A DNA stretch of 7,936 nucleotides, from the IMG/VR virus record IMGVR_UViG_2654587792_000005, positions 1 to 7,936 of that record; one strand, 5' to 3'. This document shows positions 1,519 to 7,936 of this stretch, in pieces. The notes below the pieces were generated by a model that saw only the letters and a list, made by a program, of their open reading frames with translations, had not been told where the DNA came from and did not search any database. The DNA is from a virus. Lineage: Duplodnaviria > Heunggongvirae > Uroviricota > Caudoviricetes. A program made the position numbers and the translations under genes. How positions within the stretch are numbered: position 1 is the stretch's first letter; each line of letters begins with the position of its first letter.

Positions 1519-3487
1519 AGATTTCCTCGTCTCGCTTGGCTTCAGTGTGGATGATGCAGGAGCGAAAAAATTCGGTTCTGTCCTCGCCGGTACAACTGCA
1601 AATGTCATCAAAATGGGGCTGGCCGTCGAAGGAGCGGCGCTGTCCGTGGTGGCCTTCACGGCTAAGATCGCCTCCGGCCTGGATAATCTTTACTGGGCGT
1701 CACAGCGCACCGGCGCGACAGTCCAGGGAATTCAGTCTATTGGCTATGCGGTTTCGCAGGTTGGCGGCAGCGTGGACGCTGCGCGATCTTCTCTGGAAAA
1801 CCTCTCCCGGTTTATTCGTAATAATCCCGGGGCGGAGGGATTTCTGAATCGTCTGGGGGTACAGACACGGGATGCCAGCGGTAACATGCGTGACATGGCC
1901 GCTATTTTTACAGGGGTAGGCCAGAAGCTCAGCGACATGCCGTATTACCGTGCTAACCAGTATGCGCAGATGCTGGGCATTGACGAAAATACCCTGTTGG
2001 CTATGCGTCGCGGTGTGGGTGGCTTCTCCGGGCAGTACAGCGCAATGGCGAAAGCTATCGGCTTCAATGCTGACGAGGCGGCCAGAAGCTCCAACAAATT
2101 TATGACCTCCCTGCGTGAGTTTGGCGCGATGGCAGGCATGGCCCGTGACAAAATCGGCTCTAATCTTGCGGGTGGGCTTGCGGGTTCGCTGGACACACTG
2201 CGCCGCCATATCCTGGACAACTTCCCGCGTATCGAGCAGACCCTGACGAAAGCCATAAAAGGCATTCTGGCGCTCGGGGATATTATCGGGCGGCTGTTCT
2301 TCAGACTGATTGAGGGGACATCAGGCCTCATCACCTGGTGGCAATCGCTGGATAAGCAAACGCGGGAGTTGATCTCGCTGTTTGGCGCACTGACGATTGC
2401 GCTGCGCATTCTGAACAGTACGTTCTGGATGTCGCCGATTGGCCTCATTACCGCGCTGGCGGCGGGGATTGCCCTCCTGTGGGAGGACTATCAGACCTGG
2501 AAGGAAGGCGGCGACAGCCTGATTGACTGGGGCAAGTGGAAACCGGAGGTTGATGCCGCGCTGAAGATGGTTCGTGACCTTAAAACGACCGTTAACGACC
2601 TGGTGAAAGCGCTGGCGAAACTGCTCAATATTGACCCCAAATCATGGTCCCTGAAGTGGGATTTCAGCAACTTCATCGACCAGATGGGCGAATTCAGCAA
2701 AATGCTGAACATGATCGCCGACCTGCTCAACGCTATCAAAGATGGCCGCTGGGCTGATGCCGTCAGCATCGGCAAACAGATACTTAATCAGGGCAGCGAA
2801 AATCCGTCAGCGATGCCGATGGTTACAGACAGCGCTAACAGTACTGCCGACTGGATTAAAGAGCACTGGGGATTTGATCCCCGCAGTGTGGGCCGGACGG
2901 TACGCGGCTGGTTTGGTGATGATGAGCCGGAACAACATGCACAGGCTACGAAACGAGGAGAACGGAATAACAATCCGGGAAACCTTAATTTTGCTGGTCA
3001 GGCAGGGGCTTCTCTTGAACGCCCGGGCGGGCGATTTGCCAGATTTGAAACTGCCTTTGATGGATTACGGGCTCTTGCTCGTCAGTTAATGCTGTACGCC
3101 GGACGGGGAATAAACAGTGTGGAGAAAATTATCTCTACCTGGGCACCTGCGTCTGATAATAACAACACAACCGCGTATATCAGGGCTGTATCGCAACGAC
3201 TGGGAGTGGATCCCCGGGCTGCCCTGAATATGAGCGATCCGCAAACCATGTCAGCATTGATGAGCAGCATTATCCAGCATGAGAATGGAAGAAATATCTA
3301 TTCTCGGGAGCTGATTAATAAGGCTGCCGTGGCGGGAATTAGTGGCAAAGTGACAGAGGTTAACCAGCAAAATACCTACCACATTTACGGTGGCGGAGAT
3401 CCGCACGCTGTCGGTAATGAGGTTGCACGTCGGCAACAGTCTGCAAATGCTCAGGTCATGCGAAGTAATCAGGTGAGGGTGGGTTAG
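1499..3487 (+). CDS. Tail tape measure protein (663 aa from ATG 1499; the ORF track begins at in-frame TTG 1478)
   Basis: Longest gene in the window, immediately after the chaperone/frameshift gene. ATG 1499 is preceded by GGAGAGAGG (1487-1495). The N-terminal half is Ala/Gly-rich. There is a long hydrophobic segment (LISLFGALTIALRILNSTFWMSPIGLITALAAGIALLW) and a distinct C-terminal module (NNNPGNLNF...IIQHENG). Stop TAG 3485-3487. Confidence 0.8.
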   Translation: MNAETIKDFLVSLGFSVDDAGAKKFGSVLAGTTANVIKMGLAVEGAALSVVAFTAKIASGLDNLYWASQRTGATVQGIQSIGYAVSQVGGSVDAARSSLENLSRFIRNNPGAEGFLNRLGVQTRDASGNMRDMAAIFTGVGQKLSDMPYYRANQYAQMLGIDENTLLAMRRGVGGFSGQYSAMAKAIGFNADEAARSSNKFMTSLREFGAMAGMARDKIGSNLAGGLAGSLDTLRRHILDNFPRIEQTLTKAIKGILALGDIIGRLFFRLIEGTSGLITWWQSLDKQTRELISLFGALTIALRILNSTFWMSPIGLITALAAGIALLWEDYQTWKEGGDSLIDWGKWKPEVDAALKMVRDLKTTVNDLVKALAKLLNIDPKSWSLKWDFSNFIDQMGEFSKMLNMIADLLNAIKDGRWADAVSIGKQILNQGSENPSAMPMVTDSANSTADWIKEHWGFDPRSVGRTVRGWFGDDEPEQHAQATKRGERNNNPGNLNFAGQAGASLERPGGRFARFETAFDGLRALARQLMLYAGRGINSVEKIISTWAPASDNNNTTAYIRAVSQRLGVDPRAALNMSDPQTMSALMSSIIQHENGRNIYSRELINKAAVAGISGKVTEVNQQNTYHIYGGGDPHAVGNEVARRQQSANAQVMRSNQVRVG

Positions 3488-4378: not shown

Positions 4379-5443
4379 ATGACACAGAACTGGATGAGAC
4401 ATTTCGAGCTGCAGCTTGTGGACGGGAACGGTCAGGGAATTGAGCTAAGTGATTTTAAAGTCACCTTTACGATCGACTGGTTCAACATCAGCAGCGCGTC
4501 CCGGGTAGGGACTATCAAAATTTATAACCTCTCGGCAGATACTGTGAACCGAATTACCGGGCAGGAGTTTTCGAAAGTGCGTCTGATTGCGGGTTACGAC
4601 GGTATCGCGCCGGAGGTGTCGGCAAGCGATGTCGGGACCGTGCGGGAGGTTGATGCGGCGGACGTGGGCCAGAGTGATGGCCGCAACTACGGACTGATTT
4701 TCAGCGGTGAAATTCGCTACTCGGTCACAGGAAAAGACAGCCCGGTTGATTCCTACGTCCTGATTCAGGCAGCAGATACTGATCTGGCTTTTGCCACCAG
4801 TATAACCTCACAGACGCTGGCTGCCGGTTACACGGTCGCTGATGTAAACCGTGCGCTGATGAAAGACTTCGAAGCCAAAGGCGCGACCGAAGGCCTGACG
4901 CCTGAAATGCCTGCTACTGTATTCCCCCGGGGGCGGGTACTCTTTGGCATGACGCGGCATCTAATGGATAACGTAGCCGGACAATGTGGCGCAACATGGC
5001 AATTCGTGGACGGTCAGCGCCAGATGGTGGCGAATAACGAATATGTTCACGAAGCGATTGTGCTCAACAGCGCTACCGGGCTTATTGGAATGCCGCAGCA
5101 GACTATCGGTAACGGCGTAAACGTCCGCGCGCTTATTAATCCGAACATCCGGGTTAACGGGCTCATTCAGCTGGATCAGGCTTCCGTCTATCGTACCGCG
5201 TTGTCGAACAACGATATTGCGATGGCTGGTGGTCAGATCACCGACCAGAACACGGACGGAAATATTACGCTAAGCGGCACCACATCGCAGCCTGCCAGCA
5301 TCGCAACGGATGGCGTTTATATTGTTCGCGGGATTATGTACACTGGCGACACAAGGGGCCAGGCGTGGTACATGGATATGATGTGCGAAGCGCGTGGGGC
5401 TAGCGATATACCTAGCCAGTTGGCAATGCAACGGGGAGCGTAA
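4379..5443 (+). CDS. Baseplate hub-like protein (354 aa; assigned by size and synteny)
   Basis: ATG 4379 lies 2 nt after the previous stop, with ACGGAG upstream. A roughly 350-aa protein between the tape measure and spike genes is where gp27/gpD-type hub proteins sit in contractile tails. I did not recognise a specific motif. Stop TAA 5441-5443. Confidence 0.45.
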   Translation: MTQNWMRHFELQLVDGNGQGIELSDFKVTFTIDWFNISSASRVGTIKIYNLSADTVNRITGQEFSKVRLIAGYDGIAPEVSASDVGTVREVDAADVGQSDGRNYGLIFSGEIRYSVTGKDSPVDSYVLIQAADTDLAFATSITSQTLAAGYTVADVNRALMKDFEAKGATEGLTPEMPATVFPRGRVLFGMTRHLMDNVAGQCGATWQFVDGQRQMVANNEYVHEAIVLNSATGLIGMPQQTIGNGVNVRALINPNIRVNGLIQLDQASVYRTALSNNDIAMAGGQITDQNTDGNITLSGTTSQPASIATDGVYIVRGIMYTGDTRGQAWYMDMMCEARGASDIPSQLAMQRGA

Positions 5444-5445
5444 GC

Positions 5446-5907
5446 GTGAAAAAACAGGTGATAGTTGCAATAACGATGCTGATTTCTACGACTTCTTTTG
5501 CCGAACCAGGTAAGTTTGAATTTAAAGCAGCCGACCTGATGGAGCAGCAAAAGTTTACGGAATGGCAACATTACGCATCTGTGAAGCCTTTTTTCTCAAT
5601 GAATGGGCGACGTTTTACAATGACCTTAGATGATTTCGCTGACATCATCAGGAACACATTCCAGCAATGTAATGATTTGGACGCATACACCAACCGCAAA
5701 GGAACCCGGGATTCTTGTCAGGAATATATTTACAACGGTATGAAAGAGTGGATAAAACTGTCAAAGGATCCTAGTGTTAGTCCGCAAGCATGGAAAATTG
5801 GTGCTAGATATGCTTTCAACACAAATAATCCTGTCCCCGGTAGTAATGTGATTGATTTTAATGGTTGGGCTGGTGGTATTCGTGTTGCAAAATCAAAAGG
5901 GTTCTAA
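5446..5907 (+). CDS. Secreted or periplasmic protein of unknown function with N-terminal signal peptide (153 aa); accessory (moron) gene
   Basis: GTG 5446 has GGGGAG (5433-5438) 7 nt upstream and lies 2 nt after the hub stop. The N-terminus MKKQVIVAITMLISTTSFA-EP has two lysines, a hydrophobic core and a probable SFA cleavage site. The mature part has two Cys (QQCNDLD, DSCQEY). Hand-counted GC is about 38% at 5461-5520, versus about 58% at 2401-2460 in the tape measure gene. Confidence 0.6.
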   Translation: MKKQVIVAITMLISTTSFAEPGKFEFKAADLMEQQKFTEWQHYASVKPFFSMNGRRFTMTLDDFADIIRNTFQQCNDLDAYTNRKGTRDSCQEYIYNGMKEWIKLSKDPSVSPQAWKIGARYAFNTNNPVPGSNVIDFNGWAGGIRVAKSKGF

Positions 5908-6022
5908 TGGCACTAGAGTAGAAAATCCTCGATTTTTCAGGGAAATGGGCTCGTAGTAAAATCTAGAGATTCATTTTCTAAGGGGGATTTTGTGCGAAAC
6001 TACTAAGTAGACCAGATGTGGA

Positions 6023-6052
6023 TTGACTAAACTGTATACGCGAACATAAAAT
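6023..6052 (+). promoter_or_regulatory. Candidate sigma70-type promoter for the two-gene operon
   Basis: TTGACT (6023-6028), an 18-nt spacer, then TAAAAT (6047-6052), in the AT-rich 173-bp intergenic region about 30 nt upstream of GTG 6081. Sequence match only. Confidence 0.4.
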
Positions 6053-6080
6053 CTGACAAAAAATAAGTAGTGAGTGAACT

Positions 6081-6851
6081 GTGGCGAGACCAAAACTAAA
6101 AGCCGAAGAGCGTTTTGACCAGTTGATTAATGTAATCAACAGTGGGGAGCCACTTGATATGTGGACTTTCCGAGAAGTGGTTTCGGAGTATGGTTCTAAT
6201 CATACTCCTATGGCTGAAGCACTTGTAGCGTTGGCTTATATAGCTAAGGGTGAGGTGCTCTTTGGGATTGAGTCGCTTGAGGTCATCCTTCCACATGCTG
6301 ACGTTAATTTCGCACGGATCTTTTGTAAACTTCTCGAGCGATTTTCTCTACTCGAAAAACTGGATTACTACATATATTCTTTAGCTGATAAGTTTCCTAC
6401 AAAGTGGTTTACTTACAAAGCTGGCGGCGTTGCGTACTTGGTAGGGAAACTATCGAAATGCGTGGAGTATTTAGGGCGTCATTGCAAAATGTTATCCGAA
6501 GAAGAGCATAGGGATGACGCAGAAACCTTCTTGCAGGAGGTAATTAACGATATGGATGAAGCTTATAAAAATTCAGGGTGCTCTTCAGAGCAATATAGGC
6601 AAGTTGCCTTGGCTGTGCACAGAGTTATGGCTGAATTCCCGTCAACTGAATATCGCGCGGACATTAACGGGGCGTCTGGTGGAACGTATTTGGTTGAGGT
6701 GGTTAAGGCGTCTCCAGAGCGGGTTGTTGCAATGAATATGCGACTTGCTGATGAAATCTGCTCGATCGATTTGCTTGATGATTGTAACCTGATAGCAAGA
6801 TTTTCCGTTGAAAGAAATGGATTAAAAGAGTGTAAATATGCCTATAACTAG
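6081..6851 (+). CDS. Hypothetical protein, first gene of accessory two-gene operon (256 aa from GTG 6081, or 230 aa from ATG 6159); putative HEPN-like partner or effector
   Basis: Low-GC ORF (about 42% by hand count at 6081-6140). GTG 6081 has a weak RBS, whereas the in-frame ATG at 6159 has GGGGAG (6144-6149) 9 nt upstream, so the true start is uncertain. The C-terminal half contains YRQVALAVH (R173-x6-H180, nt 6597-6620), preceded by the acidic helix DAETFLQEVINDMDEAYKN. The stop TAG 6849-6851 overlaps the next gene by 14 nt. Confidence 0.55.
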   Translation: MARPKLKAEERFDQLINVINSGEPLDMWTFREVVSEYGSNHTPMAEALVALAYIAKGEVLFGIESLEVILPHADVNFARIFCKLLERFSLLEKLDYYIYSLADKFPTKWFTYKAGGVAYLVGKLSKCVEYLGRHCKMLSEEEHRDDAETFLQEVINDMDEAYKNSGCSSEQYRQVALAVHRVMAEFPSTEYRADINGASGGTYLVEVVKASPERVVAMNMRLADEICSIDLLDDCNLIARFSVERNGLKECKYAYN

Positions 6852-7233
6852 TTCTGAGTTTTTGTCTTCGGCCGAACGTTGTTTTGCTGAAGATTGTGAG
6901 ATTGGTTATCGTAATGCTATTTCACGAGCATATTACGCTCTCTACCATGAAATTAAAGATAATCTAACTAGTCTTCCTGCTTATACTCGGGATCATCATG
7001 CCAGCCTTATCTCTTATCTTAAAAATAAGGGAGAAAATAAACTGGAACCCTATGATCCTCGAAGTCTAAAATCTATGGCTTACAAACTTGAGCAACAGAG
7101 GTTAGCTCGGAATGAGGCTGATTATGATTTAAGTAGTTGTGGCATAAATAAAGCAATGGCACAACAATCAATCTTGGAAGTAAAAACAATTTTTTCTCAA
7201 TGGGAACAAATGAAGACTGATGTAGCCGTTTAG
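6838..7233 (+). CDS. Small HEPN-like protein, second gene of accessory two-gene operon (131 aa)
   Basis: ATG 6838 with AAGAG 8 nt upstream, overlapping the upstream gene. The helix SAERCFAEDCEIGYRNAISRAYYALYHEIKD carries R30-x6-H37 (nt 6925-6948). A second His pair follows (DHHASLISYL), then a C-terminal helix QQRLARNEADYD. From memory this resembles canonical HEPN-domain proteins; the domain call is unverified. Stop TAG 7231-7233. Confidence 0.5.
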   Translation: MPITSSEFLSSAERCFAEDCEIGYRNAISRAYYALYHEIKDNLTSLPAYTRDHHASLISYLKNKGENKLEPYDPRSLKSMAYKLEQQRLARNEADYDLSSCGINKAMAQQSILEVKTIFSQWEQMKTDVAV

Positions 7234-7252
7234 GTCTAACTGATTTATTAAT

Positions 7253-7280
7253 AAAAACCCGCCACTTGGCGGGTTTTTTG
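7253..7280 (+). terminator. Rho-independent terminator (A-tract, GC stem-loop, T-tract; potentially bidirectional)
   Basis: AAAAA-CCCGCC-ACTT-GGCGGG-TTTTTTG: a perfect 6-bp all-GC stem (7258-7263 with 7268-7273), a 4-nt loop, then six T. It lies 20 nt after the HEPN-like gene stop; the flanking A-tract would allow function on the opposite strand too. Confidence 0.8.
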
Positions 7281-7298: not shown

Positions 7299-7936
7299 AT
7301 GGCAGTATCTGACCAGACCCGCAGCGGCGACCTTGCCGAAACATTCAAATCTGAACGGGAAACAACAAAGAACCAGATCCGTGTCGCCTTGCCTGGCATT
7401 ATTCAGTCATTCGATCCTGATGCGGTGACGGCAGTTGTGCAGCCTGCTATCCGTTCGGTTGAAAAGGATAATGACGGCAACCGCATTACCCAAAATTACC
7501 CATTGCTGGTGGATGTGCCAGTGGTATTCCCGCGTGGCGGAGGCTGTACGCTAACGTTTCCAGTTAAAGCCGGTGATGAATGTTTGGTGATTTTTGCCGA
7601 TCGTTGTATTGATTTCTGGTGGCAGAGTGGCGGGATACAGGAGCCGGTCGATGACAGAATGCATGATTTATCGGATGCGTTTTGTATTGTCGGTCCCCAG
7701 TCGCAGGCAAGGAAGATTAGCGGTATTAATACCAGTGCCACACAGTTGCGTAGTGATGACGGCAGCACCTATTTTGAGCTTAATCCTGATACCAGGAAAA
7801 TTAAAATTGTCGCTCCGGGGGGCCTTGATGTGGTTGCCCCTCTGGCTGATTTTTCTGAGAAAGTAACCATTCATGGCCTGTTAACCTGGATGGGAGGCAT
7901 GGTGGGGTCTGTTGTTTCTGGTGTGGCTTCAAAAAT
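7299..7936 (+). CDS. Baseplate central spike-like protein (gpV / gp138-like), N-terminal part; 3-prime end beyond window
   Basis: ATG 7299 has GGAG (7287-7290) 8 nt upstream. The frame has no stop over 212 codons to the window end (hand translation: MAVSDQTRSGDLAETFKSERETTKNQIRVALPGIIQSFDPDAVTAVVQPAI...LVDVPVVFPRGGGCTLTFPVKAGDECLVIFADRCIDFWWQSGG...). The ORF track omits it because it has no stop. GC returns to the tail-module level. The spike call rests on position after the hub gene and on a remembered N-terminal pattern, so it is tentative. Confidence 0.5.
   Translation, partial: MAVSDQTRSGDLAETFKSERETTKNQIRVALPGIIQSFDPDAVTAVVQPAIRSVEKDNDGNRITQNYPLLVDVPVVFPRGGGCTLTFPVKAGDECLVIFADRCIDFWWQSGGIQEPVDDRMHDLSDAFCIVGPQSQARKISGINTSATQLRSDDGSTYFELNPDTRKIKIVAPGGLDVVAPLADFSEKVTIHGLLTWMGGMVGSVVSGVASK

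What the first reader, a model, noticed from the sequence alone, without database searches (positions are those of the whole stretch)
5446..5907. Signal-peptide protein gene coupled to the hub gene
A low-GC gene starts 2 nt after the hub stop and encodes a 153-aa protein with a textbook Sec signal peptide (MKKQVIVAITMLISTTSFA, then EP) and two cysteines in the mature part. An exported protein is not expected in a tail module. Phage-encoded exported morons are often superinfection-exclusion, envelope-modifying or host-interaction factors. It could also be an envelope-located component working with the downstream two-gene operon.
Basis: partly seen in the sequence, partly recalled or inferred. 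Interest (0 to 1): 0.5.

Follow-up and report, generated by a model that had tools for sequence, protein, structure and literature searches.

The report
Exported accessory protein beside baseplate hub
A real gene in an E. coli prophage encodes a small protein that is almost certainly exported to the periplasm, belongs to an undescribed family recurring inside the tail-tip genes of related phages, and is most plausibly a blocker of infection by other phages, though no function has been tested.

Summary
The ORF is real: 5446-5907 (+), 153 aa, GTG start 2 nt after the hub stop, with a Shine-Dalgarno site. It has a Sec-type signal peptide and two cysteines invariant across 47 relatives. The mature part is under strong purifying selection, and GC is 0.41 against 0.54 for the hub.

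No Pfam, PHROG, NCBIfam or PADLOC family matches. A confident model (pLDDT 92) has no convincing match among solved structures.

The window is a SEN34-like E. coli prophage tail module. The ORF opens a ~1.85-kb variable island (about 5401-7254) between the hub and spike genes.

- In all 33 related enterobacterial loci read, the first gene after the hub encodes an exported protein.
- That protein is either this domain ("family A", sometimes a lipoprotein) or an unrelated ~110-aa "family B".
- Distant relatives have hub directly followed by spike, so the slot is accessory.
- Family A also sits between tape measure and Dit, between plug and hub, and in satellite-like islands.

Best reading: a periplasmic, non-structural accessory protein, probably for superinfection exclusion. 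That function is inferred, not shown. It does not depend on the downstream HEPN-like pair. Exported proteins in tail operons are precedented, not unexpected.

The parts
4379..5443 (+). Baseplate hub gene (354 aa). Its last ~14 codons (from about 5401) already belong to the variable cassette in loci that carry family B.
   Evidence: PHROG 196 'baseplate hub' E 4.5e-88 and Pfam E217_GP41 E 6e-5, below Pfam's cut-off. Homology breakpoints by blastn.
5433..5438 (+). Shine-Dalgarno site GGGGAG, 7 nt upstream of the GTG start and inside the end of the hub gene.
   Evidence: Read directly from the sequence.
5446..5907 (+). ORF153: the precursor of an exported protein of an undescribed family ('family A'). 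GTG start; the TAA stop is included.
   Evidence: homologues; purifying selection.
5446..5502 (+). Codons 1-19, a Sec-type signal peptide (MKKQVIVAITMLISTTSFA). Cleavage after Ala19 is predicted, not shown.
   Evidence: Heuristic scoring and aligned cleavage motifs. The region diverges freely, with pN 2-7 times higher than in the mature part and much closer to pS.
5503..5904 (+). Mature domain of 134 aa. Predicted fold: one helix, a three-stranded sheet, then five helices.
   Evidence: AlphaFold2 model with pLDDT 92 and pTM 0.85. No convincing match in the PDB or in BFVD.
5668..5670 (+). Cys75 codon, invariant in the family. Presumed partner of Cys91 in a periplasmic disulfide.
   Evidence: Invariant in 47 sequences. 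The disulfide itself is inferred.
5716..5718 (+). Cys91 codon, invariant in the family.
5401..7254 (.). Variable accessory island between the hub and spike genes. ORF153 is its first gene.
   Evidence: blastn breakpoints against 15 related loci; low GC throughout.
6023..6052 (+). Sigma-70-like promoter (TTGACT, 18 nt, TAAAAT) for the downstream two-gene unit. This is a separate module from ORF153.
   Evidence: 10 of 12 consensus matches. The surrounding stretch from window 5974 on is 87% identical in E2348/69, and the motif can be read there.
6081..7233 (+). Neighbouring module: a 256-aa gene (6081-6851) overlapping a 131-aa HEPN-like gene (6838-7233). It is independent of ORF153.
   Evidence: Pfam HEPN E 0.0023 and PADLOC HEPN_IX E 0.003, both weak; PHROGs 17809 and 5176. 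Distribution across loci.
7253..7278 (+). Perfect 12-bp hairpin followed by a T run. It marks the right edge of the island, just upstream of the spike gene, which starts at 7299.
   Evidence: Homology to related loci resumes at 7247-7256 in 14 of the 15 loci compared.

Best explanation
**What it is.** ORF153 is a non-structural accessory gene of a SEN34-like temperate myovirus integrated in E. coli. It is translated from the late tail transcript, coupled to the hub gene. Expression from the repressed prophage is possible but was not tested.

**How it probably works.**
- The precursor is exported by Sec and cut after Ala19.
- This releases a soluble 15-kDa domain into the periplasm, probably stapled by a Cys75-Cys91 disulfide.
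- There it most likely binds a component of the envelope-crossing step of infection. The target could be the incoming tail-tip complex (tape measure, hub, spike) or a host periplasmic partner of that complex.
- The result would be superinfection exclusion: other phages with this type of tail cannot complete entry.

**Shown versus inferred.**
- Shown by computation: a real gene under selection, signal-peptide features, the accessory nature of the slot, and the recurrent placement of the family.
- Inferred: export, the disulfide, and the exclusion function.
For: 1. **Real, selected gene with export features.**. The only invariant columns over 47 relatives are the two cysteines. Many relatives carry a lipoprotein signal instead of a Sec signal: L036 has LTSC at residue 18, and P0018, P0022, P0024, P0026 and P0030 have lipobox-like motifs. 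Swapping one export signal for another on the same domain argues that what is conserved is an envelope location.
2. **Accessory slot.** Hub is directly followed by spike in Ab105-1phi and PSTCR3. The island is bounded at about 5401 and 7254. GC is 0.41 against 0.54.
3. **Non-orthologous replacement.** In 33 enterobacterial loci the first gene after the hub is always an exported protein. It is family A in 6 loci and the unrelated family B in the rest. Family B forms 7 tandem paralogues in Serratia aquatilis. Such arrays are, from general knowledge, typical of specificity-diversifying immunity or exclusion genes.
4. **The domain keeps company with the tail-tip genes.** In the same tail type it lies between tape measure and Dit (P0014, P0015), between plug and hub (P0022) and between hub and spike (P0012).
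5. **It is also cargo of satellite-like islands.** These carry an integrase and a DUF927/Toprim primase (P0013, P0018, P0026).
6. **Neighbours in the island are defence-like.** They include a HEPN-like pair and YafO toxin-antitoxin genes.
7. **Precedents.** HK97 gp15 is a moron in the tail operon whose exclusion depends on the phage tail region (PMC3594210). T4 Spackle is a small periplasmic inhibitor of the tail lysozyme gp5 (PMC7677548, PMC7650644). T5 Llp is an exclusion lipoprotein (PMC9586334).
Against: - No experiment and no homologue of known function exists. There are no hits in Pfam, PHROGs (which include the annotated exclusion families), NCBIfam or PADLOC.
- No own promoter or terminator was detected. 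Expression in the lysogen, which classical exclusion needs, is therefore unsupported. The gene looks like a late gene.
- The slot family does not co-vary with the tape-measure C-terminal domain, the hub or the spike. Loci with family A (L001), family B (L003) and the lipoprotein form (L036) share 98-100% identical versions of these proteins. This argues against a matched inhibitor-target pair.
- One relative (P0011, with Sel1 repeats) has no recognisable phage genes among its neighbours.
Confidence: 0.42

Rival explanations
1. A late-phase self-protection factor. It is made only during lytic growth, with the tail proteins, and acts in the periplasm of the already infected cell. It would stop secondary adsorbing phages from puncturing the envelope early (resistance to lysis from without), or stop progeny from wasting themselves on infected cells and debris.
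For: - The gene has a 2-nt coupling to the hub gene and a Shine-Dalgarno site inside the hub gene.
- No promoter-like site lies upstream and no terminator lies downstream.
- The same tight coupling is seen for every occupant of the slot.
- T4 Spackle acts during the lytic cycle (PMC7677548). From general knowledge, T4 sp mutants were first recognised by their loss of resistance to lysis from without.
Against: - Spackle and Llp are early genes, whereas a protein made with the tail genes arrives late for this job.
- The relatives carried by satellite-like islands are not part of any late tail operon.
Confidence: 0.2
2. A specific periplasmic inhibitor of the peptidoglycan hydrolase carried by the tape measure protein. 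This would be a Spackle-like mechanism and is a narrower form of the best explanation.
For: - The tape measure protein here ends in a lytic transglycosylase domain: RefSeq names it 'lytic transglycosylase', PHROGs 7182 and 873 match, and Pfam SLT matches in L038.
- The relatives P0014 and P0015 lie immediately after the tape measure gene.
- The protein is small, periplasmic and largely helical with a cysteine pair, like Spackle.
- P0017 lies next to a gene of the LprI lysozyme-inhibitor family.
Against: - The same domain accompanies tape measure proteins with different wall-degrading domains: SLT in the window and L038, Peptidase_M23 in L026, none recognised in L048 and L050.
- Families A and B alternate next to 99-100% identical tape-measure C-termini.
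Confidence: 0.12
3. A lysogenic-conversion fitness factor unrelated to phages. Examples would be protection of the envelope against host lysozyme, serum or antimicrobial peptides, in the manner of lambda Bor or Lom.
For: - Foreign GC.
- Carriers are animal- and human-associated Enterobacteriaceae: chicken, pig and human E. coli, Klebsiella and Citrobacter.
- Exported morons with such roles are known (PMC3594210).
Against: - The domain is repeatedly found inside the tail-tip gene string of distant phages from wastewater and other metagenomes, at four different insertion points. A host-niche factor does not explain this.
- It shares its island with defence-like genes.
Confidence: 0.13
4. An envelope-located component of the downstream 256-aa plus HEPN-like two-gene system.
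For: Physical proximity within the same low-GC island. A related pair also follows family A in Trabulsiella (L012).
Against: - The pair has its own promoter-like site, and 173 nt separate it from ORF153.
- Its homologue follows family B in L003, and a divergent pair of the same architecture follows family B in L006, L007 and L039.
- No such pair is present in the family A loci L002, L004, L036 and L038.
Confidence: 0.03
5. A tail structural or assembly protein whose hydrophobic N-terminus is not a signal peptide; or, alternatively, not a functional gene at all.
For: Its position inside the tail operon and its translational coupling to the hub gene.
Against: - The slot is empty in distant relatives with the same baseplate.
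- The slot is filled by unrelated families.
- The N-terminus evolves like a signal peptide, and some relatives carry a lipobox.
- Strong purifying selection excludes a non-gene.
Confidence: 0.05

Closest known systems
HK97 gp15 (moron-encoded superinfection exclusion protein; PMC3594210)
   Same: A small envelope-targeted protein encoded by foreign-GC DNA inserted inside a tail operon, next to genes for the parts that cross the envelope. It is an accessory gene.
   Different: - gp15 is a YebO-like inner-membrane protein, whereas ORF153 appears to be a cleaved, soluble periplasmic protein.
- gp15 has its own promoter and terminator and is expressed from the prophage; ORF153 shows neither signal.
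- There is no sequence similarity: no PHROG or Pfam hit.
T4 Spackle (gp61.3), periplasmic inhibitor of the tail lysozyme gp5 (PMC7677548, PMC7650644)
   Same: A small exported protein that acts in the periplasm against the wall-degrading part of an incoming tail.
   Different: - Spackle is an early gene of a lytic phage and is not linked to the tail genes.
- ORF153 relatives accompany several different wall-degrading domains.
Cor (phi80, N15, HK022) and T5 Llp, receptor-blocking outer-membrane lipoproteins (PMC3594210, PMC9586334)
   Same: Exported exclusion proteins. From general knowledge, they are encoded next to the tail or receptor-binding genes. Some ORF153 relatives are lipoproteins (L036, P0018, P0022).
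   Different: - ORF153 itself has no lipobox.
- It lies next to the hub and spike genes, not the fibre or receptor-binding genes.
- No sequence similarity, and no known receptor target.
Family B, the alternative occupant of the same slot (for example E2348/69 WP_012578957.1 and SEN34 gp20)
   Same: The same position, the same tight coupling to the hub gene, a signal peptide and two conserved cysteines. It too is uncharacterised.
   Different: - Unrelated in sequence and about 110 aa long.
- Far more common: at least 738 clusters, against about 26 for family A.

Membership tests
Sec (signal peptidase I) signal peptide | A positively charged n-region, a hydrophobic h-region of about 7-15 residues, and small residues at positions -3 and -1. 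| tested here: met
   MKK, then QVIVAITMLISTT, then S-F-A before EP. A small-x-small site sits at the same alignment column in most of the nine family rows; P0003 has AFC. The scoring was my own heuristic; no SignalP was available.
Sec (signal peptidase I) signal peptide | Actual export and cleavage. | not testable with these tools
   Needs a PhoA or BlaM fusion, or N-terminal sequencing. Indirect support comes from the invariant cysteine pair and from signal-peptide codons that evolve much more freely than the mature part.
Bacterial lipoprotein (signal peptidase II) | A lipobox, [LVI][ASTVI][GAS]C, at the end of the signal peptide. | tested here: not met
   ORF153 has no cysteine before residue 75. 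The remote relative L036 has LTSC at residue 18, and several others have lipobox-like motifs.
Moron, as defined in PMC3594210 | GC content differs from the flanking genes, and the element lies between genes that are adjacent in related phages. | tested here: met
   GC 0.41 against 0.54. Hub and spike are adjacent in Ab105-1phi and PSTCR3.
Moron, as defined in PMC3594210 | Its own promoter and terminator, allowing expression from the repressed prophage. | tested here: not met
   No promoter-like site between 5000 and 5446, and no terminator between 5907 and 6081. These are consensus scans only, so weak signals could be missed.
Annotated superinfection-exclusion and defence families (PHROGs, PADLOC) | Sequence similarity to a described family. 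| tested here: not met
   No PHROG hit at E<=0.1 and no PADLOC hit at E<=1.
T4 Spackle | The Spackle fold or sequence. | tested here: not met
   [not shown]
Periplasmic lysozyme inhibitors (Ivy, MliC/PliC, PliG, LprI/DUF1311) | A Pfam domain match or a clear fold match. | tested here: not met
   [not shown]
Family A, the undescribed domain defined here | The conserved domain profile: an NGR motif, C..D..AY...C, SKD.SIS..AW and F.HWAG.RV..S.GY, preceded by an export signal. | tested here: met
   ORF153 is the query and the best-scoring member. There are 23 representatives at E<=1e-3 among 1.84 billion proteins and 26 clusters in the 5.8-billion set. Alignments are A1-A3.

The most novel reading that the evidence does not exclude
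Families A and B may be two unrelated solutions to one conserved task in SEN34-like phages. That task would be a dedicated periplasmic neutraliser of the tail-tip complex of this tail type. The genes would be exchanged as cassettes at the 3' end of the hub gene, stacked in arrays where diversification pays (Serratia), and borrowed by satellites. That would be a new, lineage-wide exclusion mechanism acting between outer-membrane puncture and inner-membrane DNA transfer.
Probability: 0.25. Interest if true: 0.65.

Novelty: new member of a known kind. Interest (0 to 1): 0.48.

Why it matters
- Hundreds of enterobacterial prophages, including those of EPEC E2348/69, avian pathogenic E. coli, Klebsiella and Salmonella, keep an exported protein of unknown function in one fixed slot beside the baseplate hub gene.
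- If these proteins block phage entry, they are an unrecognised layer of prophage-encoded resistance.
- That would matter for phage therapy host range, and for understanding how contractile tails cross the periplasm.
- The two families give matched, easily cloned candidates for testing.

Tried and rejected
- **Family libraries.** Pfam, PHROGs, NCBIfam and PADLOC scans of ORF153 gave nothing. A Pfam scan of 10 remote relatives found only Sel1/TPR repeats in one N-terminal extension.
- **Other structure searches.** The PDB sequence-profile search gave only chance hits. BFVD gave one unnamed 324-aa viral protein at E 8e-3. The afdb50 library was unavailable.
- **Matched target.** I tested whether the slot family co-varies with the tape-measure C-terminus, hub or spike alleles. 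It does not.
- **Transposon-like borders.** I looked for flanking repeats; only the hairpin at 7253-7278 turned up.
- **RNA families.** Rfam found none in the window.
- **An error of mine.** My first slot survey wrongly suggested empty slots in L005-L009, L016, L017 and L019. Re-reading the frames showed family B genes whose longest ORFs begin upstream of the hub stop.
- **Literature.** Searches found no paper on this family or this slot.

Full report
**1.

The + strand carries an ORF at 5446-5907 of 153 codons. It starts with GTG, not ATG. The hub gene ends with TAA at 5441-5443, two bases (GC) follow, and GGGGAG at 5433-5438 gives a well-spaced Shine-Dalgarno site.

The N-terminus is MKK, then a 13-residue hydrophobic core, then S-F-A before EP. 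It is the only hydrophobic stretch in the protein. The remaining 134 residues are hydrophilic, with pI 8.9.

GC is 0.41 (GC3 0.39), against 0.54 (GC3 0.61) for the hub and tape measure genes.

Comparison of four alleles shows a real coding gene:
- In the mature part, pN is 0.05-0.21 and pS is 0.68-0.87.
- In the first 25 aligned codons pN rises to 0.27-0.64, against pS of 0.33-0.71.
- This is what a signal peptide constrained only in its physical character would show.

No SignalP-type tool was available. Export is therefore a strong inference, not a demonstration.

**2. Where the window comes from**

The window is 100% identical to a prophage of E. coli APEC-O117H42, next to pphA, yebW and yebV. 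Its genes, in order, are:
- the C-terminal end of the sheath (DUF3383)
- the tube
- the tail assembly chaperone
- the tape measure protein, with a lytic transglycosylase end
- a Dit-like protein
- a Pam3 gp18-like plug
- the hub
- ORF153
- a 256-aa gene overlapping a 131-aa HEPN-like gene
- the spike, from 7299 to beyond the end of the window

Cultured relatives include Salmonella phage SEN34 (genus Brunovirus), Klebsiella phage Mulock, Hafnia phage yong1 and several Escherichia vB_EcoM phages.

**3. The protein family**

ORF153 matches nothing in Pfam, PHROGs, NCBIfam or PADLOC.

Close homologues form only nine clusters, all in Enterobacteriaceae and all unnamed. Their alignment shows 60 invariant columns in the mature part and a freely varying N-terminus.

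A profile search of 1.84 billion representatives found 23 proteins at E<=1e-3. In these the domain occurs:
- alone (153-183 aa)
- followed by a C-terminal extension of about 60-70 residues rich in charged residues (about 210-225 aa)
- at the C-terminus of 290-374-aa proteins, many of them with lipobox-like signals

None carries a Pfam domain over this region.

The commonest occupant of the slot among E. coli family A members is a 241-aa lipoprotein (CREC-544, signal LTSC). It is a remote member of the same domain: hmmsearch E 2e-6 in the local set, and E 9e-30 once it was included in the profile.

Over 47 sequences the only invariant columns are the two cysteines. That fits a disulfide formed in the periplasm.

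With this deeper alignment AlphaFold2 gives a confident model, pLDDT 92 and pTM 0.85: one helix, a three-stranded sheet, then five helices.
- No lysozyme, Spackle, Ivy or MliC-type protein appears.
- The viral structure library yields one unnamed protein, at E 8e-3.

The fold is therefore uninformative about function.

**4. The slot**

blastn against 15 related loci places the variable region at about 5401 to 7254. Its right edge is a perfect 12-bp hairpin with a T run (7253-7278), from which homology to related loci resumes upstream of the spike gene.

I read the hub-to-spike interval in 33 enterobacterial-clade loci. In every one, the first gene is tightly coupled to the hub gene and encodes a protein with an N-terminal export signal.
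- Six loci carry family A: the window (L001), L002, L004 (phage yong1), L012, L038, and the lipoprotein form in L036.
- The rest carry an unrelated ~110-aa family B, which also has two invariant cysteines. These include E2348/69, SEN34 and Mulock.
- Family B is much commoner, with at least 738 clusters, all unnamed.
- In Serratia aquatilis, family B forms seven tandem paralogues. At least two short ORFs resembling the 3' end of the hub gene lie between them, judged by eye.

In distant relatives with the same baseplate (Acinetobacter Ab105-1phi, Providencia PSTCR3), the hub gene is followed directly by the spike gene. The slot is therefore accessory, not part of the machine.

Later genes in the island vary: the HEPN-like pair, a YafO toxin-antitoxin pair, and several membrane or exported proteins.

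**5. Family A elsewhere**

Four look-ups placed remote family A members in the same E217/Pam3-type tail module, at three different points:
- between tape measure and Dit (P0014, P0015)
- between plug and hub (P0022)
- between hub and spike (P0012)

Three others lie in the cargo part of integrase-plus-primase islands that look like satellites (P0018, P0013, P0026). P0013 lies two genes upstream of a tail-fibre gene.

One relative, the Sel1-repeat fusion P0011, has no recognisable phage genes among its neighbours.

**6. Interpretation**

The signal peptide sends the protein out of the compartment where virions assemble, and the slot is dispensable in relatives. ORF153 is therefore not a tail part.

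Four things point to an envelope-located anti-phage role:
- the slot is always filled by an exported protein
- the occupants are replaced by unrelated proteins of the same kind
- the domain recurs next to genes for the parts that cross the periplasm
- it also occurs on satellite-like elements, beside defence-like genes

Documented precedents are HK97 gp15, Cor and Lom (PMC3594210), T4 Spackle (PMC7677548, PMC7650644) and T5 Llp (PMC9586334). I put about 0.4 on this mechanism and about 0.85-0.9 on the more modest statement "exported, non-structural accessory protein".

Two findings weigh against the classical prophage-expressed form:
- No promoter or terminator of its own was detected, so the gene may be expressed only late.
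- The slot family does not co-vary with the tape-measure end, hub or spike.

The second finding also weakens a Spackle-like matched-inhibitor model. So does the occurrence of the domain beside tape measures with different wall-degrading domains.

**7. Verdict**

This is a genuine and well-described feature, and a member of an undescribed family. It is of a known general kind: an exported accessory gene in a tail operon. The wider pattern, a fixed exported-protein slot with two alternating families, is the more interesting result and is directly testable.

Noticed in passing
window 6081-7233 (promoter-like site 6023-6052): A 256-aa gene and a 131-aa HEPN-like gene overlap by 14 nt and have their own sigma-70-like promoter. 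Pairs of the same architecture but divergent sequence (243+142 aa and 257+126 aa; the HEPN part is 28-38% identical) sit in the same island in other loci. In L002, L017 and L018 their place is taken by a YafO toxin-antitoxin pair. This looks like a candidate toxin-antitoxin or abortive-infection module.
   Followed up: partly
window 7253-7278: A perfect 12-bp GC-rich hairpin with a T run sits in the middle of the tail operon, just before the spike gene. Homology to related loci resumes at 7247-7256 in 14 of the 15 loci compared, so it marks the right edge of the variable island. A terminator at this point would need read-through for the spike and wedge genes to be expressed.
   Followed up: partly
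L003 6144-6485, and the same slot in about 25 other loci: Family B is an unrelated ~110-aa exported protein with two invariant cysteines. It has motifs such as QCGGY, INGE.VTSQK and FLNVQLLQNSMDAPK.IGSFPC. It is the usual occupant of the slot after the hub gene, forms at least 738 clusters, and has no Pfam domain and no name.
   Followed up: partly
L022 6092-10980 (Serratia aquatilis): Seven tandem family B paralogues, one of them truncated. At least two short ORFs resembling the 3' end of the hub gene lie between them, judged by eye. The layout recalls arrays of orphan immunity genes.
   Followed up: no
L008/L016 about 6420-7159; L009 6443-6859; L042 3928-4350; L044 3905-4411; L040 1240-1479: The second gene in the island is also often envelope-targeted. 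Examples are a 245-aa signal-peptide protein with a tRNA_anti-like domain, 138-168-aa proteins with one N-terminal transmembrane helix, and a DUF4282 membrane protein.
   Followed up: no
window 2828-3487 (tape measure residues 451-669) compared with L004-L022: The C-terminal third of the tape measure protein is mosaic across otherwise 90-96% identical tail modules. Some loci match over only 19-27% of it, which suggests that the wall-degrading domain has been swapped.
   Followed up: no
L045 3457-3828 (minus strand) and L047 1963-2436: Distant relatives also carry small genes with signal peptides beside the hub gene. In Burkholderia phage Magia the gene lies on the opposite strand, between hub and spike. 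In Providencia phage PSTCR3 it lies between plug and hub. Neither belongs to family A or family B.
   Followed up: no
L011 and L024: Contigs labelled Chryseobacterium sp. 18061 and Bacillus sp. AFS073361 carry hub genes 92-98% identical to the E. coli one. Contamination or mislabelling of those assemblies is likely.
   Followed up: no
[not shown]
   Followed up: no
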